From NCBI GenBank assembly GCA_964016885.1, contig OZ024743.1:362700001-362764000 (forward strand): a stretch of DNA of 64,000 nucleotides. Reading direction: 5' to 3'. Below are positions 2,883 through 60,441 of this stretch, one piece after another. Made by a program: the position numbers and the translations under genes. Position 1 is the first letter of the stretch. Every line of letters begins with the position of its first letter. Source of the stretch: Eledone cirrhosa. Lineage: Eukaryota. Under the pieces are notes generated by a model, which saw only the letters and a list, made by a program, of their open reading frames with translations, was not told the origin of the DNA and searched no databases.

Positions 2883-2953
<71 letters not shown>

Positions 2954-2954
2954 C

Positions 2955-3399
2955 ATAGTGAAATAAAATAACAAGGACGATTGCTTACTCCTTCATTACC
3001 TTTATTGGTTGGTGACGCGCATTTCGCCACTGAACAGCTCAAGGTTCGATCTGTATCGATCTGACCCGACTCTCTAACCCGCGGTTCGTCAGACCCCTTG
3101 TAATGGTAATAGAAACATGAATATACATGCCGTATGATAAAGTCTGATGTTCCTATAGTGGTCAGTGAAGTTTGTTTTGATTGGTGGATTAATTCATAGG
3201 GATGTTTTTTGCCTGTAGTGTATATGTGTGTGTGTGTGTGGGGGGGGGGGGGGGGATAAGTTGGTAGTGCCGGTCATAGGTTGTTATTTTATTTCACTAT
3301 AATTCACTCTGTACAGCTCTACACCTCGACACTGACCTGAATCTAAACATCAAGTGCTCACCCGGGTGAACCTACAGTAACTCCAAGTTACACGCCCGG

Positions 3400-22560: not shown

Positions 22561-23486
22561 ATAATAATTGTTTCTACTTTTGGCACAAGGCCAGCAATTA
22601 CCCAGTGTATTACTGGTACTTTATTTTATCGACCTCGAAGGATGAAAGGCAAAGTTAACCTCGGCGGGATTTGAACTCAGAATGGAAAGGGCCGTAACTC
22701 TTTGCGTCAAAGCATGGCGTCAGACCCTCTACCGATACTGCCAATTCACCGCTGTGTATGATAATAATGATTTCTACTTTTGGCACAAGACCAGTAATTT
22801 GGGGAGAGGGGAAAGTCGATTAAATCGACCCCAGTACATTACTGGTGCTTTATTTTATCGACCACGTAAGGATATAAGGCAAAGTTAACTTCGGCGAGAT
22901 TTGAACTCAAACCGTAAAGGACCGTAACTCTATGCTGCAAAGCATGGCGTCCGACCCTCTACCGATACTGCCAAACTACAGAATATAATGCAGTAGAACA
23001 ATTGTTGCAATAATATTAATAATAATTGTTTCTACTTTAGGCACAAGGCCAGCAATTATCCAGTACATTACTGGTACTTTATTTTATCGACCCCGTAAGG
23101 ATGAAAGGCAAAGTTAACCTCGGCGGGATTTGAACTCAGACTGTAAAGGGACGTAACTATGCTAGAAAGCATGGCGTCCGACTCTCTACCGATACTGCCA
23201 ATATAATAATGGTTATGAAGCTGGTTTATAATTATGGTGAAGTTAATGAAGAAAAATGATATTAATAATAATGGTTTCTTATATAAGCACAAGGCCAGTA
23301 ATTTTGGGGGAGGGTAAAGTCGATTAAATCGACCCAGTGCGTGACTGGTACTTTATTTTATCGACCCCTTAGGGATGAAAGGCAAAGTTAACCTCGGCGG
23401 GATTTGAACCCAGATAATAAAAGGCCGTAACTCTATGCTGCAAAGCATGGCGTCCGACCCTCTACTGATACTGCCAATACACCGCC
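22561..23486 (-). mobile_element. Cluster of four co-oriented SINEs
   Basis: Copies at ~22561-22753, 22765-22975, 23021-23201 and 23265-23486. Confidence 0.88.
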
Positions 23487-30510: not shown

Positions 30511-31857
30511 AAATATGTAAGAAATTATAATTGTTAACTACTTATTATGACATTTTGGCTCAGACGTTTTTCGAACCACCATCCTTCTAATTTGAAATTA
30601 GACTCGCTAGCCAAGTGTTACTAATAATATAATTTTTTTTTATTTCTTTTTTTTTTTTTTTACATTGTAGTTTATCAAGGTTGAAATGAATAATTCCATT
30701 CAGTTTGCGATCTATGACTCACTTTCCACCCAGCTACAACCTGACACAAAAAAACTTTTGACATTTACCGACTTATCTTATCTAGTACTTATACGTGACA
30801 GTCATTATCATTATCTTCTATATTGTTATCTGAAGGTATAAATGGCCAGATGACACAATCACCTATTTGTAACCCACTTGTGTAAACGAATATATGTGAC
30901 TCAACGAGAAAGGTAGTGGTAGGGCTAGGAAGTGACAGCGTGAGAGAATTGGTGAGAAATGAAGAGAAAGTGTGAGACATGGGGAAGGAGAAGGAAAGCG
31001 AATGATAGAGAGTAAAAGGAATAAATAAACCAGGCGAGAGAGATATAGAGAGTGAGTAGGTAGGGAATGTACGAGAGAAGTAACCTGTTAGAACAAGTGT
31101 TGTAGAACTAGAGATGATCATGTATTGAAATGTATATCATGTATCAGGTAAACCATGGCTAAATGTTTAAGATGTTTGCGTTACGGTCATTGGGCTACAT
31201 ATTTGATTCTACAATAGCCTTAGTTCGATCCAAACCTTGTGAGTGAAATTGGATAGGTAGAAACTGAGTAGAAGCTAGACGGATTGATTGTATACGTAAT
31301 TTAAAGGTTCAACCTTGTCACGCGTTACATTGTTTCGGCTTGGGAATTATGTGAAAAGTATATGTTTCTGAGTAATACTCAATCATTTACACGTTGATTC
31401 ACGAGTATTACGTTCTATTTATCGAACAACTGGATGTGCATGGTCGAAATCGATGAAGAATCTATTATTAATACCAATTCACCCTACTTAGAGTATACAT
31501 CTATTTTACTAAAATTTACTTAAATGTTGAGATTTTTTCACTAGTAAAAAGAACAAAACAATACTCGTTGTTCAAATCCCAAGCTGATCAACTTTGTTCT
31601 CCGTCCTTCTTCGGTCGATAAAGCAAAGAATTGGGGAAGCACTGGAGTTAATCTGATAGACTACGCACTCTGTTGTTTTGCGAATTAGCAGCTTCGTTAG
31701 AAGATTGCAATAAATGACTTATGAGATTTGATCTAGTTTTCTGTCCTCTGATGCTCAAATTCCGCCGTCAACTTTATATTTCAACCTTTTGTGGTGATAA
31801 ATGAAGTACCAGTCCATGAGAGTTGAATGGTGGAATTGGTAGAGCGTTGGACCAGAT

Positions 31858-34800
31858 CAGTGGCGAAGAGTAACCTGGAAAGCAGGGTATGCAGTCCAAT
31901 CGCCATGACGGAAAGTGGGGGTGTGCAGCCTTACCCCCCCCCCCCCCCCCAATTCCCTCTAAATGACTCTCCCGGTCAAAACCGCATGTAGTGTTATCTA
32001 GTGTGTGTGTGTGTGTTATCTTTATTTGTGTCTACGATTTAGTAAGCAGTCAAAATTCTGCTTGCTCCAAAGCTGTCGTGTGTGTGTGTGTATGTGTGTT
32101 TGTGTGTATGTGTGTGTGTTATCTTTTTATATGTCTACGATTTAGTAAGCAGTCAAAATTCTGCTTGCTCCAAAGCTGTCGTGTGTTTGTGTGAGTGTGT
32201 GTTTATGTGTATGTGTGCGTGTGTGTGTGTTATCTTTTTATGTGTCTACGATTTAGTAAGCAGTCAAAATTCTGCTTGTTCCAAAGCTGTCGTGTGTGTG
32301 TGTGTATGTGTGTTTGTGTGTATGTGTGTGTGTGTGTGTTATCTTTTTATATGTCTACGATTTAGTAAGCAGTCAAAATTCTGCTTGCTCCAAAGCTGTC
32401 GTGTGTGTGTGTGTATGTGTGTTTGTGTGTATGTGTGTGTGTGTGTGTTATCTTTTTATGTCTACGATTTAGTAAGCAGTCAAAATTCTGCTTGTTCCAA
32501 AGCTGTCGTGTGTGTGTGTGTATGTGTGTTTGTGTGTATGTGTGTGTGTGTGTGTTATCTTTTTATATGTCTACGATTTAGTAAGCAGTCAAAATTCTGC
32601 TTGCTCCAAAGCTGTCGTGTGTGTGTGTGTATGTGTGTTTGTGTGTATGTGTGTGTGTGTGTGTTATCTTTTTATACGTCTACGATTTAGTAAGCAGTCA
32701 AAATTCTGCTTGCTCCAAAGCTGTCGTGTGTTTGTGTGTGTTTGTGTGTATGTGTGTATGTGTGAGTGTGTGTGTGTTATATTTTTATGTGTCTACGATT
32801 TAGTAAGCAGTCAAAATTCTGCTTGCCCCAAAGCTGTCGTGTGTTTGTGTATGTGTATGTGTGTCTGTGTGTGTTATCTTTTTATATGTCTACGATTTAG
32901 TAAGCAGTCAAAATTCTGCTTGCTCCAAAGCTGTCGTGTGTGTGTGTGTGTATGTGTGTTTGTGTGTATGTGTGTATGTGTGTGTGTTATATTTTTATGT
33001 GTCTACGATTTAGTAAGCAGTCAAAATTCTGCTTGCCCCAAAGCTGTCGTGTGTATGTGTGTGTGTGTGTGTCTGTGTGTGTTATCTTTTTATATGTCTA
33101 CGATTTAGTAAGCAGTCAAAATTCTGCTTGCTCCAAAGCTGTCGTGTGTGTGTGTGTGTATGTGTGTTTGTGTGTATGTGTGTGTGTGTGTGTGTTATAT
33201 TTTTATGTGTCTACGATTTAGTAAGCAGTCAAAATTCTGCTTGCTCCAAAGCTGTCGTGTGTTTGTGTGTGTGTGTGTGTTATCTTTTTATGTGTCTACG
33301 ATTTAGTAAGCAGTCAAAATTCTGCTTGCTCCAAAGCTGTCGTGTGAGTGTGTGTGTGTTTGTGTGTATGTGTGTGTGTGTGTGTTATCTTTTTATATGT
33401 CTATGATTTAGTAAGCAGTCAAAATTCTACTTGCTCCAAAGCTGTCGTGTGTTTGTGTGAGTGTGTGTTTATGTGTATGTGTGCGTGTGTGTGTGTTATC
33501 TTTTTATGTGTCTACGATTTAGTAAGCAGTCAAAATTCTGCTTGCCCCAAAGCTGTCGTGTGTGTGTGTGTATGTGTGTGTGTGTCTGTGTGTGTTATCT
33601 TTTTATATGTCTACGATTTAGTAAGCAGTCAAAATTCTGCTTGCTCCAAAGCTGTCGTGTGTGTGTGTGTATGTGTGTTTGTGTGTATGTGTGTGTGTGT
33701 GTGTGTTATATTTTTATGTGTCTACGATTTAGTAAGCAGTCAAAATTCTGCTTGCCCCAAAGCTGTCGTGTGTTTGTGTATGTGTGTGTGTGTCTGTGTG
33801 TGTTATCTTTTTATATGTCTACGATTTAGTAAGCAGTCAAAATTCTGCTTGCTCCAAAGCTGTCGTGTGTTTGTGTGAGTGTGTGTGTGTGTGTGTTATC
33901 TTTTTATGTGTCTACGATTTAGTAAGCAGTCAAAATTCTGCTTGCTCCAAAGCTGTCGTGTGTGTGTGTGTGTGTTTGTGTGTATGTGTGTGTGTGTGTG
34001 TTATCTTTTTATATGTCTATGATTTAGTAAGCAGTCAAAATTCTACTTGCTCCAAAGCTGTTGTGTGTTTGTGTGAGTGTGTGTTTATGTGTATGTGTGC
34101 GTGTGTGTGTGTTATCTTTTTATGTGTCTACGATTTAGTAAGCAGTCAAAATTCTGCTTGCTCCAAAGCTGTCGTGTGTTTGTGTGAGTGTGTGTGTGTG
34201 TGTGTTATCTTTTTATGTGTCTACGATTTAGTAAGCAGTCAAAATTCTGCTTGCTCCAAAGCTGTCGTGTGTGTGTGTGTATGTGTGTTTGTGTGTATGT
34301 GTGTGTGTTATCTTTTTATATGTCTACGATTTAGTAAGCAGTCAAAATTCTGCTTGCTCCAAAGCTGTCGTGTGTTTGTGTGAGTGTGTGTTTATGTGTA
34401 TGTGTGCGTGTGTGTGTGTTATCTTTTTATGTGTCTACGATTTAGTAAGCAGTCAAAATTCTGCTTGTTCCAAAGCTGTCGTGTGTGTGTGTGTATGTGT
34501 GTTTGTGTGTATGTGTGTGTGTGTGTGTTATCTTTTTATATGTCTACGATTTAGTAAGCAGTCAAAATTCTGCTTGCTCCAAAGCTGTCGTGTGTGTGTG
34601 TGTATGTGTGTTTGTGTGTATGTGTGTGTGTGTGTGTTATCTTTTTATGTCTACGATTTAGTAAGCAGTCAAAATTCTGCTTGTTCCAAAGCTGTCGTGT
34701 GTGTGTGTGTATGTGTGTTTGTGTGTATGTGTGTGTGTGTGTGTTATCTTTTTATATGTCTACGATTTAGTAAGCAGTCAAAATTCTGCTTGCTCCAAAG

Positions 34801-36470
34801 CTGTCGTGTGTGTGTGTGTATGTGTGTTTGTGTGTATGTGTGTGTGTGTGTGTTATCTTTTTATACGTCTACGATTTAGTAAGCAGTCAAAATTCTGCTT
34901 GCTCCAAAGCTGTCGTGTGTTTGTGTGTGTTTGTGTGTATGTGTGTATGTGTGAGTGTGTGTGTGTTATATTTTTATGTGTCTACGATTTAGTAAGCAGT
35001 CAAAATTCTGCTTGCCCCAAAGCTGTCGTGTGTTTTTGTATGTGTATGTGTGTCTGTGTGTGTTATCTTTTTATATGTCTACGATTTAGTAAGCAGTCAA
35101 AATTCTGCTTGCTCCAAAGCTGTCGTGTGTGTGTGTGTGTATGTGTGTTTGTGTGTATGTGTGTATGTGTGTGTGTTATATTTTTATGTGTCTACGATTT
35201 AGTAAGCAGTCAAAATTCTGCTTGCCCCAAAGCTGTCGTGTGTATGTGTGTGTGTGTGTGTCTGTGTGTGTTATCTTTTTATATGTCTACGATTTAGTAA
35301 GCAGTCAAAATTCTGCTTGCTCCAAAGCTGTCGTGTGTGTGTGTGTGTATGTGTGTTTGTGTGTATGTGTGTGTGTGTGTGTGTTATATTTTTATGTGTC
35401 TACGATTTAGTAAGCAGTCAAAATTCTGCTTGCTCCAAAGCTGTCGTGTGTTTGTGTGTGTGTGTGTGTTATCTTTTTATGTGTCTACGATTTAGTAAGC
35501 AGTCAAAATTCTGCTTGCTCCAAAGCTGTCGTGTGTGTGTGTGTGTGTTTGTGTGTATGTGTGTGTGTGTGTGTTATCTTTTTATATGTCTATGATTTAG
35601 TAAGCAGTCAAAATTCTACTTGCTCCAAAGCTGTCGTGTGTTTGTGTGAGTGTGTGTTTATGTGTATGTGTGCGTGTGTGTGTGTTATCTTTTTATGTGT
35701 CTACGATTTAGTAAGCAGTCAAAATTCTGCTTGCCCCAAAGCTGTCGTGTGTGTGTGTGTATGTGTGTGTGTGTCTGTGTGTGTTATCTTTTTATATGTC
35801 TACGATTTAGTAAGCAGTCAAAATTCTGCTTGCTCCAAAGCTGTCGTGTGTGTGTGTGTATGTGTGTTTGTGTGTATGTGTGTGTGTGTGTGTGTTATAT
35901 TTTTATGTGTCTACGATTTAGTAAGCAGTCAAAATTCTGCTTGCCCCAAAGCTGTCGTGTGTTTGTGTATGTGTGTGTGTGTCTGTGTGTGTTATCTTTT
36001 TATATGTCTACGATTTAGTAAGCAGTCAAAATTCTGCTTGCTCCAAAGCTGTCGTGTGTTTGTGTGAGTGTGTGTGTGTGTGTGTTATCTTTTTATGTGT
36101 CTACGATTTAGTAAGCAGTCAAAATTCTGCTTGCTCCAAAGCTGTCGTGTGTGTGTGTGTGTGTTTGTGTGTATGTGTGTGTGTGTGTGTTATCTTTTTA
36201 TATGTCTATGATTTAGTAAGCAGTCAAAATTCTACTTGCTCCAAAGCTGTTGTGTGTTTGTGTGAGTGTGTGTTTATGTGTATGTGTGCGTGTGTGTGTG
36301 TTATCTTTTTATGTGTCTACGATTTAGTAAGCAGTCAAAATTCTGCTTGCTCCAAAGCTGTCGTGTGTTTGTGTGAGTGTGTGTTTGTGTGTATGTGTGA
36401 GTGTGTGTGTGTTATCTTTTTATGTGTCTACGATTTAGTAAGCAGTCAAAATTCTGCTTGCTCCAAAGCT

Positions 36471-36504
<34 letters not shown>

Positions 36505-36810
36505 TGTGTATGTGTGTGTGTGTGTGTTATCTTTTTATATGTCTATGATTTAGTAAGCAGTCAAAATTCTGCTTGCTCCAAAGCTGTCATGTGTTTGTGT
36601 GAGTGTGTGTTTGTGTGTATGTGTGAGTGTGTGTGTGTTATCTTTTTATATGTCTACGATTTAGTAAGCAGTCAAAATTCTGCTTGCTCCAAAGCTGTCG
36701 TGTGTTTGTGTGAGTGTGTGTTTGTGTGTATGTGTGAGTGTGTGTGTGTTATCTTTTTATGTGTCTACGATTTAGTAAGCAGTCAAAATTCTGCTTGCTC
36801 CAAAGCTGTC

Positions 36811-36891
<81 letters not shown>

Positions 36892-37019
36892 CCTTTTTTT
36901 TGTCTATACGTTTTAGGTAGCAGCCAAAATTCTGCTTGCTTCAACCGACGCAATTGATCAACTCAAGGTTCTATAACGCATGCACTGCATGCGTTGCATG
37001 CACGGACTCTTCGCCCCTG
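31858..37019. mobile_element. hAT-type MITE with internally expanded satellite
   Basis: TIRs CAGtggcgaagagt / actcttcgcccCTG; 8-bp TSD gaccagat at 31850-31857 and 37020-37027; interrupts a SINE-like head. Confidence 0.88.
32001..36942 (+). repeat. Tandem array: ~47 x (62-bp constant unit + variable (GT)n spacer)
   Basis: Unit ttatctttttat(a/g)tgtctacgatttagtaagcagtcaaaattctgcttgctccaaagctgtc; higher-order period 2189 bp. Confidence 0.97.
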
Positions 37020-37413
37020 GACCAGATGCCATGCGGTATCATACGGTGTCTCATTGTCTTACGACTTTAAGTCCCTATAGTTGCAGTCTGATATTTCAGT
37101 CAAACGTTCTTGTTTTTATTGCCGTTATCGTTGTGGTTGTCGTTGTTATTGGTGATGGTAATGGCAGCTGGGGTGGTGGTAGTAGTGGCTGGAATGGTGG
37201 TGGTGGTGGTCGCGCTGTTGTGCTGCTGCTGCTGATAATGATGATGAAACCATAAAAAAAATGCTTAGATTACAGCCTTTTTTAGGAGGAAAATTAATTG
37301 TCTTATTGATGTATTCTGGTTATGAAATTAATTAGAATGATCTAAAAATAGAATGCAGAGGGAAGTAAATCAGATATATCACGGGACGATTCAAAAATGT
37401 TTCTGTCTCACAC

Positions 37414-46305: not shown

Positions 46306-46540
46306 ACGTTCCCTGGCAAAGAACGGGAAAAAAACGAATATAATACGTCATTAATAGGAGCGGTGAAAAACAATTACACGCAAAGACAGAACCACGTTTA
46401 TGGTATAAAAGAAGTCGTAGACTAATGTTCTCTGGCAATGAACGGAAAAAACGAAGATAATACGTCATATGTAGAGCGTGGAGAACAATTGCACGCAAAG
46501 ACAAAACCACGTAAATGGTATAACTGAAGTCGTAGACTAA
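46306..46540. repeat. ~119-bp tandem duplication
   Basis: gttc.ctggcaa.gaacgg...gaagtcgtagactaa twice. Confidence 0.7.
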
Positions 46541-50411: not shown

Positions 50412-50679
50412 CAGTGGCGAAAGGTAACCTGGAAAGCAGGGCATTCAGTCCAATCGCCATGGCGGAAGGTGGGGCTGTGCAGCCTTACCCCCCACCCCCG
50501 GTCAAAGCCGCATGCAGTGTTATCTAGTGTGTCTGTGTGTGTGTGTGTGTTATCTTTTTATGTGTCTACGGTTTAGTAAGCCGCCAAAATTCTGCTTGCT
50601 TCAACCGACGCAATTGATCAACTCAAGATTCTATAACGCATGCACTGCATGCGTTGCATGGACGTACCCTTCGCCTCTG
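50412..50679. mobile_element. Unexpanded copy of the hAT-type MITE
   Basis: CAGtggcgaaaggta...tacccttcgcctCTG; one copy of the satellite unit; no clean TSD. Confidence 0.85.
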
Positions 50680-56847: not shown

Positions 56848-59016
56848 CTACCCCCCCCCCCCCCCCACTCGGGTCATTATGGGGTTTGAGGGCGAGGTAA
56901 GTCCTACGCAATCTGTGTTTGCATGCGCAGTTACCAGTTCGTCTTTCTTGTTTAGGAGTTGGTCCGTCGAAAACAACATTTGTAAAATTTCCTTCGAGCA
57001 TAAATTGCACGGACGGCGTCCTCCCGTGTAAGAGTTGGCTCTGGACAGTAAGCTCCAAGTGAGATCATAGGTAATATTGTTATCCTTGAGGTCCCAGATG
57101 TGGCCCGAAAGTGTGGTGGCGTGACGCCGGGCCGGGTTCCAGAAGGTATGTCTGTTTTGGTATAGCCGGGTCTTGAAGTCACATGCGGTTAATCCTATAT
57201 AAGCTTTGTTGGAGGTGTCCGTCCTCACGTTGCACTGGTAGATCACATTACGATCTCTGCATCTGTTGTCGAGGGGGAAAATGGATCCATCAGGACAGTT
57301 GCACCTCCTGGTCGGCTCTCCACTTCTATTTAGGTTATTTCTTCCATAGGGATTGAGTTTTTTGTTGTTAGAGGAAACGATGTTTTGTGCAAAGTTAGGT
57401 GTGGTGCTGTAGGGGAGTTTGATGGTATTTTTGGTAATTATGTTGTGGTAGCGGTGTTGTAGTGGGAAGTGTTTTTCGATGAGCCTAAAGAAGATTTTCC
57501 CGATAGGAGTTGTCACCTCGGCGTTGTGGGGAGGATTGAACCATGTTACATTGCGTGAGCGGCGGTGTCGCCTGCTAGTTCCGCTAATGGAAGCTGGACA
57601 GTAGGATATTTCCTCCCGGAAACCACTCCGCTTGAAGGCCTGGTTGTAATAAGGCGCATGTTCCTCGAATATCTGCTTATTAGCGAACAAACGAGATATG
57701 CGGAGGGAGATGTTTTTAACCAGTTTATTAGTGATGTTCCTATGATGGTTTGACCGGCGGTGGATGTAATGCAGGTTGTCGTTGAGTTTCCTGTATGGGT
57801 AGTACAGATCATTATCGAGGTCAAGGGTAACGTCCAGGAACTTTACTCGGGTCAGGGACGTTTTTAGGGTTATTTTAAATCCCCAGTCGCGGAAGAAGCT
57901 GATTAATTGTTTACGGACCCGGTCTGTACTACTGGGGTTGTACCCTTTAAGGGTAAGGAGCCCATCATCACGGTACAATCCACCGCCGAATGCAGGAAAC
58001 ATATCGATGAGTTTAACTAGTAGGAATAATCCTATAAGATCTGTGACCTCAGCCGAATCCGTCGCGCCCATGCTGACGTCGAAGGGTGAGTCGGGAGCTC
58101 TCTTTATCCATTTGGAGTTGTCGAAGAGTAGGACTGTCTTCCTGGCGTGGAGGATAATGTTTCTTTCCTGGTCGGTGATGGGCGCAAGTGTTTCGGCAAA
58201 GTCTAAGGCAGCCGTAAGTACCGGTAAGGTGATTGAAGCATAGTAACTCTCTATGTCAAACTGGATGAATTTTGTGTCTCGTTTGTCCTCCATATTGCTG
58301 AACCATGAGATTACTTCCTGGGTGTTGATCCATAGGCTAAGTCTGACGTGTTGCTTAACTTTTGGTATAACGCGGTCTAGGATTTTTTTGCTGATTCTCC
58401 CTATGTCGGACTTCGTTGGGTTTATAAGCCTGACAGAAGGTTTACGGTCGAAATCGGATTTGTCGTCCTTCAGTGTGAAGTAGGGTGTCCGTGGGTCTAG
58501 GGGTTCCGTGCGGGTGGCGACCCCGAGGCTGGAGGTAATTTGTTGTCCATCTCGATTTATGTCCTCGATGCAGGAGTGGTTAGCCTTTTTATAGGTGGAG
58601 TTTAGGCTGCTCCTGATCAGTGTGTGGTATCTGTCGGGGTTGACGAAGTAGAGGTTACCAGTTTTATCCGAGTGCACCATGATGTCATTAGTGTTATCAT
58701 ACTCTGTTAAGTTGCTACGGAGTTTTTGTAGGAATCGGTTGTGTCTGGGTTTGAATTTAATGTTCTTGACAAGTTGGAAAAGGTCATTCTTGAAGGGTGA
58801 GAGCATAGGGTTCGGAGGGGGAGATTTGTAGGTATTAAATCCGAATCTCTCCTTGGTACCGAAGTCCTGATTGTCGCAATATATGTCGTAGAAAAAAGTT
58901 CTCCATCTAAGTCTTTTCGCAAAGAGGTTGATTTTTTGCGTGAGCATTCGAAGGTAAAGTTTTTTCGGTGGAACTGGGATGTTCTTGGTGGAGAAGTTGA
59001 TGTTGTGTTTTCGCAT
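56848..59016 (-). CDS. PLE reverse transcriptase + C-terminal GIY-YIG endonuclease (likely defective; Hydra-clade-like)
   Basis: ATG at 59016 (MRKHNINFSTKNIP); SDKTGN, FDIESYYASI, MGATDSAE, LYRDDGL, FLDVTL, WFNPP, CNC, VIY...YIG, CNLC; the upstream ORF-track extension lies in the inverted arm. Confidence 0.9.
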   Translation of the reverse strand: MRKHNINFSTKNIPVPPKKLYLRMLTQKINLFAKRLRWRTFFYDIYCDNQDFGTKERFGFNTYKSPPPNPMLSPFKNDLFQLVKNIKFKPRHNRFLQKLRSNLTEYDNTNDIMVHSDKTGNLYFVNPDRYHTLIRSSLNSTYKKANHSCIEDINRDGQQITSSLGVATRTEPLDPRTPYFTLKDDKSDFDRKPSVRLINPTKSDIGRISKKILDRVIPKVKQHVRLSLWINTQEVISWFSNMEDKRDTKFIQFDIESYYASITLPVLTAALDFAETLAPITDQERNIILHARKTVLLFDNSKWIKRAPDSPFDVSMGATDSAEVTDLIGLFLLVKLIDMFPAFGGGLYRDDGLLTLKGYNPSSTDRVRKQLISFFRDWGFKITLKTSLTRVKFLDVTLDLDNDLYYPYRKLNDNLHYIHRRSNHHRNITNKLVKNISLRISRLFANKQIFEEHAPYYNQAFKRSGFREEISYCPASISGTSRRHRRSRNVTWFNPPHNAEVTTPIGKIFFRLIEKHFPLQHRYHNIITKNTIKLPYSTTPNFAQNIVSSNNKKLNPYGRNNLNRSGEPTRRCNCPDGSIFPLDNRCRDRNVIYQCNVRTDTSNKAYIGLTACDFKTRLYQNRHTFWNPARRHATTLSGHIWDLKDNNITYDLTWSLLSRANSYTGGRRPCNLCSKEILQMLFSTDQLLNKKDELVTAHANTDCVGLTSPSNPIMTRVGGGGG

Positions 59017-60441
59017 GGTGCGGGTGAAAGCCACCACACTTTCGGGCCACATCTGGAACCTCAAGGATAACAATATTACCTATGATTTCACTTGGAGCTT
59101 ACTGTCCAGAGCCAACTCTTACACGGGAGGACGCCGTCCGTCCAATTTATGCTCGGAGGAAACTTTACAAATGCTGTTTTCGACGGACCAACTCCTAAAC
59201 AAGAAAGACGAACTGGTAACTGCGCATGCAAACACAGATTGCGTAGGACTTACCTCGCCCTCAAACCCCATAATGACCCGAGGGGGGGGGGGGTAGACAA
59301 GGGCTGTAACACCCTACTTGCCGACTTTGTATTGGGTAAGCCCTGCTTGCAAAGGTAGACGTAAGATCTTCTTTTATATCTTTTTATCGCTTCCTCTATT
59401 TTTCCTTCTTCCCCCATCCCTTCCTAGTCCTTCCACCCAGTCCTCTTTCTTTGTCGTCGTCCTTTTCACTTTCTCACCCACCCGAGGCAGCTCCTCGGTC
59501 CTTTGTAGCCTCAGTACCCCCACCCCTTCCCCTATTCTATGATAGAATTGGCCGACTCTGCTTTTTATAGCAGATGTGATAGACCCCAGATACTTGCTTT
59601 CTTATCCGATGGCTGCCCCTTTTCCGTGCTTTCTATATTTCTTAGTGGTATCTTTGCTTTAATTTCTCGTATATCAGTATTTACTTGGGGGGGGGGGGGG
59701 GTTCTGAATTAATTTTCCGTATCAAATTTTTCATATATTTCGTAGGAGCATTTATGTAGTTTGCACTAGAATTTTTGTATCGTAGCGGCACCTTTAGAGA
59801 TAGTATTAGTATTCTTTTTCGGGATTTTGAATTATTATTTCGTATTAGTTTACTTTTTGCACTGGGTAGTTGCTGGCCTTGTGCCTAGGGTAGAAACAAT
59901 TATTTCGTATTAGTCTCGGGACTCTGAATTATTATTTCGTGGTAGTTTCTTTAGTATTTTGGCCCCCCCACTCGTTGACCCGTCACCGTAAGATATACTC
60001 GGTTGATTACTACTACCTCTTAAAAGGGTCTCATTATAATTCCGTCCCACCTAGTAAACTTTTCTATAGTCTAGCAGTACCAGTGTGAGACTTGATGGCT
60101 GTCGTTAGGGAATAGTAACCAGAAATTGTGTTTTTTTTTTTAATATTTAATTGTTTTTTTTAACATTCTCGGTATTCTTCTATATATTTACCCATATTGT
60201 TTTACTTATTGTTTCGACTTCCTCCCCCTCCTCCTCCCTAGTATACTTCATTGACCTCCTGCCCTGCTGTAGTTGGCACTATCAACGCACGACTGGGTTT
60301 CCTCCACCCCCACTCCCTCTTTCTTCTACTGGCAGGTTCAGCTACCCCTTCCTTCCACAAATTGCCATGATAGAATTATGTGTCTCAACAACAAACTTTT
60401 GACCAATTCTTGTGACAATCACTTTTACCATATATGGAATT

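What the first reader, a model, noticed from the sequence alone, without database searches (positions are those of the whole stretch)
31858..37019. CRISPR-like repeat/spacer array grown inside a hAT-type MITE
About 47 near-invariant 62-bp units, each with a hairpin (gtaagcag-tcaaaatt-ctgcttgc), alternate with (GT)n spacers of differing length and interruption pattern. The array lies between intact CAG...CTG TIRs and a perfect 8-bp TSD. A ~270-bp transposon has expanded ~19-fold while keeping its ends, so this is a satellite with its birthplace visible, and it may still be transposable.
Basis: partly seen in the sequence, partly recalled or inferred. Interest (0 to 1): 0.75.

Follow-up and report, generated by a model that had tools for sequence, protein, structure and literature searches.

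The report
Minisatellite grown inside hAT transposon copy
One copy of a small, common DNA transposon has swollen to 5.2 kb because a ~105-base piece inside it (a 62-base core plus a GT microsatellite) is repeated 47 times, likely by unequal exchange in place after insertion; this is a well-documented new example of a known route from transposon to satellite DNA, not a CRISPR-like system.

Summary
Observation confirmed: 47 cores alternate with GT tracts between 14-bp TIRs and a perfect 8-bp TSD. The element belongs to a family with about 1,000 first-look candidates. 56 of 76 sampled complete copies hold 1-3 units. The family derives by internal deletion from a 3.1-kb hAT transposon with the same ends, which already carries two units upstream of its transposase. 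A second, independent 45-unit array lies on another contig. The window's marker word has 30 of its 39 genome copies in this array; the other 9 are singletons, so the expanded copy has not visibly moved. Read-contig depth supports a large array but does not settle the youngest 21-unit duplication. 'CRISPR-like' fails: the spacers are recurring GT tracts (20 types in 46). The hairpin arms are not specially conserved. No intact autonomous partner was found. Published parallels: miDNA4 and Xstir (Xenopus), DTC84 (clam). This scan already noted the same phenomenon, with much larger arrays, in other MITE families of this genome. New member of a known kind.

The parts
31850..31857 (.). left 8-bp target-site duplication
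   Evidence: identical to 37020-37027
31858..31871 (+). left terminal inverted repeat, 14 nt
   Evidence: same end in the family and in parent elements L092, L159, L160, L162
31858..31941 (+). left arm = first ~84 nt of the parent element (the end downstream of the transposase ORF); a 17-C run at 31934-31950 marks the internal deletion junction
   Evidence: blastn 90-94% to parent positions 1-84; C run read from sequence
31957..32015 (+). parent-derived segment upstream of the transposase ORF, leading into the first GT tract
   Evidence: 92% to L160 positions 2224-2342 together with the first unit
32016..36887 (+). tandem array: 46 internal-type cores (60-62 bp), each followed by an interrupted GT tract (23-77 bp); period about 105 bp
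32027..34195 (+). first copy of a 21-unit (2,189-bp period) block
   Evidence: 2 mismatches against the second copy; 17 of 24 unit+spacer pairs identical at lag 21
34216..36384 (+). second copy of the 21-unit block
36888..36946 (+). terminal-type core (59 bp), matching the parent's second unit
   Evidence: 94% to L092 positions 2943-3074 together with the right end
36947..37019 (+). right end with a subterminal inverted repeat and the right TIR (37006-37019)
37020..37027 (.). right 8-bp target-site duplication

Best explanation
This is one copy of a non-autonomous hAT MITE, an internal-deletion derivative of a 3.1-kb hAT transposon in the same genome, whose internal unit (62-bp core plus GT tract) is repeated 47 times, likely through repeated unequal exchange or slippage between misaligned units in place, long after the copy was inserted. 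Shown: the parent carries two units separated by a GT tract upstream of its transposase ORF; MITE copies carry 0-13 units between the same ends; two copies carry 45 and 47 units, each with its own marker variant, its own insertion site and its own block duplication (14 and 21 units). Inferred: the transposase spread short copies when the family was active (ends now about 3-5% from the family majority). Any copy with two or more units is then a latent VNTR, because both the core and the GT tracts give homology. Small duplications came first, and a single recent 21-unit duplication (0.09% diverged) nearly doubled this array. GT slippage changes spacer length in 2-base steps. No host function is proposed; it is likely neutral.
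For: Parent: L092, 3,074 bp, same TIRs, perfect TSD, 748-aa open frame with DUF4371 (E 1e-21) and Dimer_Tnp_hAT (E 4e-6), two units at its end. L160 and L162 also have both ends, perfect TSDs and two units. The MITE arms map to the parent's two ends. Family: 65 of 76 complete copies have TSDs matching at 7 or 8 of 8; unit counts 0:3, 1:22, 2:21, 3:13, 4:7, 5:5, 7:2, 9:1, 10:1, 13:1 in a sample enriched for multi-unit copies. Independent 45-unit array at G000:C2:391.77 Mb with a different marker and a 14-unit periodicity. Growth in place: 30 of 39 exact copies of the marker 31-mer lie in the window, the other 9 are single hits at 9 places; a longer window-type 31-mer has 8 of 8 hits here. Exchange inside cores: all four combinations of two core variants occur (34, 6, 2, 2). 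Timing: window ends differ at 6 of 155 sites from the majority, the two blocks at 2 of 2,169. Reads: the marker contig's depth corresponds to 30-36 copies when calibrated on a 337-copy word and 27-44 when calibrated on the flank, against about 10 expected if the array were collapsed.
Against: The exchange mechanism is inferred from end products in one assembly; no pedigree, population or long-read data were seen. The four-combination result could also come from recurrent mutation (only 1 of 5 column pairs tested showed it). The depth estimate (pooled 33) falls between the assembled state (about 37-39) and the state without the second block (about 24-26), and the tool states that depth is no copy number; X1-X3 are one sample, possibly the assembly's own. 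The read contig crosses the left junction by only 28 letters, short of the tool's 31-letter criterion. Only the best 40 of about 1,000 candidates were scored per DNA search, so diverged long arrays may be missed.
Confidence: 0.8

Rival explanations
1. The array is real but about 26 units long; the 21-unit block duplication is an assembly artefact or is present on one haplotype only.
For: The blocks are 99.9% identical and all their spacer lengths match, whereas the 14-unit blocks of the C2 array differ in most spacer lengths. The depth estimate of 30-36 lies below the assembled 37-39.
Against: The window's GT runs are short and interrupted (median 7 repeats against 22 in the C2 array), so they would be expected to slip far less. 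Two fixed differences separate the blocks. The depth lies above the 24-26 expected without the block.
Confidence: 0.15
2. Expansion was driven by the transposase: excision followed by gap repair from the sister chromatid with template slippage, or transposition of progressively longer copies.
For: Short multi-unit copies are scattered with their own TSDs, so 2-5-unit forms may have moved as such. Both ends of the window copy are intact.
Against: The last doubling is about 40-fold less diverged than the ends are from the family majority. No parent with both ends and all motifs was found: L092 has K where L091, L159 and L160 have E in the last acidic motif, and L159 lacks the end upstream of its ORF. 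There is no sister of either long array. The C2 array grew although its right TIR has a one-base deletion.
Confidence: 0.1
3. Rolling-circle amplification of an excised circle of units, followed by reinsertion.
For: Multi-unit blocks recur in register in both long arrays.
Against: Each block occurs only twice, and the array is a nested mosaic of small duplications rather than many copies of one block.
Confidence: 0.05
4. A functional repeat-spacer array, CRISPR-like or a source of processed hairpin RNAs.
For: Near-invariant cores with a stem-loop alternate with variable spacers; + strand RNA z -2.5.
Against: Spacers are recurring GT tracts with no foreign sequence. Hairpin arms are no better conserved than the rest of the core. 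No Rfam match at E <= 1 in 31500-32600. The unit is inherited from the transposon's end.
Confidence: 0.02

Closest known systems
miDNA4 of Xenopus tropicalis (Scalvenzi and Pollet 2014; seen only through passages of the reviews PMC12628747 and PMC9659126)
   Same: A MITE carrying an internal monomer as a single copy or as an array of variable length; proposed to grow through flanking microhomology and to give rise to satellite arrays.
   Different: miDNA4 is Tc1/mariner and is proposed to have captured its repeat. Here the element is hAT, the unit is traceable to the autonomous parent's end, each unit contains its own GT microsatellite, and no free arrays without TIRs were found.
DTC84 and pearl elements of bivalves (PMC3879986, passages)
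   Same: Molluscan MITE-like elements with core repeats, a palindrome in the core, a microsatellite, and a distinct variant fixed at the last position of the array.
   Different: DTC84 has up to five cores, one microsatellite at the array end and a putative AA TSD. Here the microsatellite lies in every unit, the TSD is 8 bp and arrays reach 45-47 units.
Xstir/Xmix of Xenopus (Hikosaka and Kawahara 2004; seen only through PMC12628747 passages)
   Same: Tandem repeat derived from the inside of a MITE, with composite MITE-plus-array forms.
   Different: The proposed mechanism needs two neighbouring elements; here one element with one pair of TIRs and one TSD holds the array.
hAT superfamily, BuT2 (Tip group) and its MITEs (PMC3942097, passages)
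   Same: 2.5-5 kb parent, 10-25-bp TIRs, 8-bp TSD, DUF4371 plus hATC domains, MITEs formed by internal deletion.
   Different: No internal tandem arrays appear for BuT2 MITEs in the passages read. The group (Ac, Buster or Tip) of this transposase was not tested by a tree; its target sites resemble the Ac-type nTnnnnAn pattern.
Subtelomeric minisatellite expansion from SINE/tRNA-V in frogs (PMC10794172, passages)
   Same: A piece of a dispersed element expands into a minisatellite in only some copies; unequal crossing over is proposed.
   Different: A retroelement, with a shown link to subtelomeric recombination. Here only two long arrays are known, both in the distal 6% of their contigs, which is a hint and not a test.

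Membership tests
hAT superfamily (non-autonomous derivative) | 8-bp target-site duplication | tested here: met
   Perfect in the window; 65 of 76 complete copies match at 7-8 of 8, of which 18 are not simple purine-pyrimidine tracts.
hAT superfamily (non-autonomous derivative) | short TIRs of 10-25 bp (PMC3942097) | tested here: met
   14 nt, 93% complementary.
hAT superfamily (non-autonomous derivative) | shares both ends with a 2.5-5-kb element encoding a transposase with the hAT dimerisation domain | tested here: met
   L092 (3,074 bp), L162 (3,076 bp), L160 (2,579 bp); Pfam PF05699 above cut-off and PF14291 in L092 and L159.
hAT superfamily (non-autonomous derivative) | acidic catalytic triad in the family's transposase | tested here: met
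   All five motifs read in L159's 740-aa frame. The assignment of these motifs as the triad is recalled, not from a call; the PDB sequence search gave no transposase hit.
hAT group (Ac, Buster or Tip) | position in a transposase tree; target-site pattern | tested here: inconclusive
   No tree built. In 18 non-microsatellite TSDs position 2 is T in 14 and position 7 is A in 12, like Ac-type nTnnnnAn (bioRxiv 10.1101/2022.09.16.508221 passage). DUF4371 plus hATC is as in Tip-group BuT2.
MITE | short, non-coding, high copy number, uniform ends | tested here: met
   One-unit copies mostly 262-300 bp; 1,055 and 996 first-look candidates for the two ends. This copy itself is no longer miniature.
currently mobile element | intact autonomous partner or young sister insertions of the expanded copy | tested here: not met
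   Two long open frames among 147 matches (131 of 737 candidates scored); neither is complete. No sister array. Unscored candidates and other individuals were not examined.
CRISPR array | unique spacers of foreign origin | tested here: not met
   20 types among 46 spacers, 14 recurring, all GT tracts with few interruptions.
CRISPR array | associated cas genes | tested here: inconclusive
   8 of the 20 window ORFs of 150 aa or more outside the array were scanned against Pfam; none matched any family.
classical satellite DNA | very long arrays and high genomic abundance, free of the source element's ends | tested here: not met
   337 exact copies of a core 31-mer genome-wide, 41 here and 39 in the C2 array; both arrays under 7 kb and still inside element ends.

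The most novel reading that the evidence does not exclude
This hAT family planted about a thousand pre-built VNTR seeds, each unit carrying its own GT recombination handle, and chromosome position decides which seeds run away: the only two arrays above 13 units both lie in the distal 6% of their chromosome-scale contigs. The family would then be a natural replicate experiment on why satellites are born where they are, with parent, seed, intermediates and products all in one genome.
Probability: 0.25. Interest if true: 0.55.

Novelty: new member of a known kind. Interest (0 to 1): 0.3.

Why it matters
Most published MITE-to-satellite cases lack a full pedigree. Here the transposase-coding parent, the deletion derivative, a graded series of unit numbers and two independent long expansions are all present, and the last doubling can be dated relative to the insertion. 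That makes it a clean teaching and test case for neutral tandem-repeat birth, and a likely hypervariable marker locus. It does not reveal a new biological system, and larger examples from other families of the same genome are already in this scan's notes (unchecked by me).

Tried and rejected
CRISPR-like reading: rejected. Conserved functional hairpin: no support; arms vary at 0.035 per column against 0.026 elsewhere in 66 family units, and the z-scores are for a feature picked after seeing it. Rfam: no match. PDB sequence search with the transposase: 3 weak hits at E 0.17-0.88, none a transposase. Expression: no RNA holder listed, which is no evidence either way. An empty allele in the same sample: no such joint or loose end among those listed at the left junction, but the lists were cut. 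The lay on 31985-32118 skipped 32072-32118, so the most array-specific words could not be measured. Empty-site continuity in paralogous repeats: the left flank resembles a dispersed repeat (up to 19 of 24 letters), but the continuation into the right flank was weak (mean 7.3 of 20 over 59 hits); not used as support. Search for longer arrays of the second unit subfamily: longest 13 units among 25 loci examined. Earlier scan notes by sequence: none. Literature searches listed no paper on this family; repeat databases such as Dfam or Repbase could not be searched, so it may already be catalogued. No supplementary files were read; the primary miDNA4 and Xstir papers were not read.
Full report
Observation. 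The region 31858-37019 is as described. A script split it into 47 cores (14 types) and 46 GT-based spacers (20 types, 23-77 bp), between a 158-bp left arm and a 73-bp right end. The ends are 14-nt inverted repeats, flanked by an identical 8-mer (chance about 1e-5).

The family. The window lies at G000:C4:362.7 Mb in a 3.0-Gb genome; earlier scan notes call it octopus-type, which I did not test. The left and right ends found 1,055 and 996 first-look candidates, of which 40 each were scored. Among 76 distinct complete copies collected from four DNA searches, one pattern search and fetched regions, 65 have TSDs matching at 7 or 8 of 8 positions. Unit counts run 0:3, 1:22, 2:21, 3:13, 4:7, 5:5, 7:2, 9:1, 10:1, 13:1. 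This sample is enriched for multi-unit copies, the core pattern can undercount diverged units, and loci overlapping the two long arrays or fetched for the transposase were left out before counting. Copy ends differ from the majority by 4.6% (left) and 3.3% (right) over 62 copies; the window copy differs at 6 of 155 sites.

The parent. Some right ends had no left end nearby. Extending four of them revealed L092, a 3,074-bp element with the same TIRs, a perfect TSD and a 748-aa open frame on the opposite strand; L091 held a broken copy, and the other two were interrupted by unrelated reading frames. Pfam gives DUF4371 and the hAT dimerisation domain, the same pair as in BuT2 (PMC3942097, passages). 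L160 and L162 also have both ends, perfect TSDs and two units. The MITE's left 84 nt and its right part map to the parent's two ends, so it is an internal-deletion derivative, and the repeated unit comes from the parent's end upstream of the ORF. The parent has an internal-type unit, a GT tract and a terminal-type unit; the window has 46 internal-type units and then the terminal-type unit. A search with the last 300 residues scored 131 of 737 candidates and found only two long open frames. L092 has K where L091, L159 and L160 have E in the last acidic motif (role recalled), and L159 ends about 30 nt upstream of its likely start, without units or TIR. No complete autonomous copy was seen.

Growth in place. 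Position 51 of the core is T in 36 of 44 window units, against C in the family majority. A 31-mer over it occurs 39 times in the genome: 30 in the window and 9 as single hits elsewhere. A 30-mer gave 28 of 35 and a longer window-type word 8 of 8. So the expanded copy has no sister. A search with ten units found a second long array at G000:C2:391.77 Mb. It has 45 units, its own marker, long pure GT runs (median 22 against 7) and a 14-unit periodicity; its right TIR has lost a base. The two arrays are independent expansions. All 45 internal spacer lengths in the window are odd, as 2-base slips predict. One of five tested pairs of core variants shows all four combinations, which suggests exchange inside cores. 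The last block duplication is about 40-fold less diverged than the ends, so at least this step happened long after insertion (inference).

Is the array an artefact? Three read sets from one sample, possibly the assembly's own, hold the flank. A contig carrying the window's marker has depth 199, 179 and 213. Calibrated on a word with 337 copies in the assembly, this gives 36, 30 and 33 copies; calibrated on the flank, 27, 33 and 44. Expected values are about 37-39 as assembled, 24-26 without the second block and about 10 for a collapsed array. A large array is supported; the block duplication is not settled. The tool warns that depth is no copy number.

CRISPR-like? No. Fourteen of 20 spacer types recur and all are GT tracts. 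The stem-loop is modest, and its arms are no better conserved than other columns across 66 family units. Rfam gives nothing. In hAT elements, palindromic subterminal repeats can be transposase-binding sites (Hermes; bioRxiv 10.1101/2022.09.16.508221, passages), so the inverted repeat may be such a relic; this is untested.

Mechanism. Shown: parent, deletion derivative, graded unit numbers, two independent long arrays, nested duplications. Inferred (0.8): transposase-driven spread of short copies, then unequal exchange or slippage between misaligned units in place, with both core and GT tract giving homology. Rivals: artefactual or heterozygous last duplication (0.15, compatible with the main story), transposase-driven gap repair (0.1), rolling circle (0.05), functional RNA array (0.02).

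Comparison and novelty. MITEs that carry monomers or arrays are described for miDNA4 and Xstir in Xenopus (read only through passages of reviews PMC9659126 and PMC12628747; listed again in PMC6947457) and DTC84 in a clam (PMC3879986, passages). Position-dependent minisatellite expansion from a transposon piece is described in frogs (PMC10794172, passages). Three searches listed no paper on this family, but repeat databases were not available. The scan's own notes list six findings of satellites inside hAT or piggyBac MITE copies in this genome, with arrays up to 240 kb (unchecked AI notes); a look-up by sequence found none for this family. What is particular here is the identified parent and the microsatellite inside every unit. 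Both long arrays lie in the distal 6% of their contigs, while the four arrays of 9-13 units do not; with n = 2, noticed after the fact, this is only a lead.

Verdict. Real, explained, a new member of a known kind. Interest 0.3.

Noticed in passing
L125 (G000:C2:391765000-391774900), about 6.7 kb on the - strand: Second, independent 45-unit expansion of the same MITE family, inserted in a GT tract, with a 14-unit periodicity and very homogeneous cores (0.8% pairwise).
   Followed up: yes
L092:4011-7084 and L159:2999-5549: Two hAT transposase copies with 748- and 740-aa open frames, about 96% identical in aligned DNA including gaps, while other copies are broken; one has a changed acidic motif, the other lacks one end. 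Younger copies or retained frames; not resolved.
   Followed up: partly
family-wide (76 copies): 47 of 65 good TSDs are alternating purine-pyrimidine 8-mers, against 3.9% of 8-mers in the window: the family inserts mostly into (AT)n-type microsatellites, which fit an nTnnnnAn target.
   Followed up: partly
window 50412-50679: A one-unit sibling of the same MITE (268 bp) in the same window, without a matching TSD.
   Followed up: partly
window 56848-59079, - strand: 743-aa open frame with no Pfam hit; a YRDD motif and a C-terminal region recall a Penelope-like reverse transcriptase with GIY-YIG nuclease (recalled, not tested).
   Followed up: no
window 22561-23201: 2.8 tandem copies of a 229-bp SINE-like dispersed repeat; related sequence forms the left flank of the MITE insertion.
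   Followed up: partly
L003, L006, L007, L014, L028, L165: A second subfamily with a different junction at the end of the internal unit; it reaches 13 units at G000:C2:297.51 Mb.
   Followed up: partly
window 46308-46540: Two-copy 115-bp direct repeat, 84% matches, of unknown origin.
   Followed up: no
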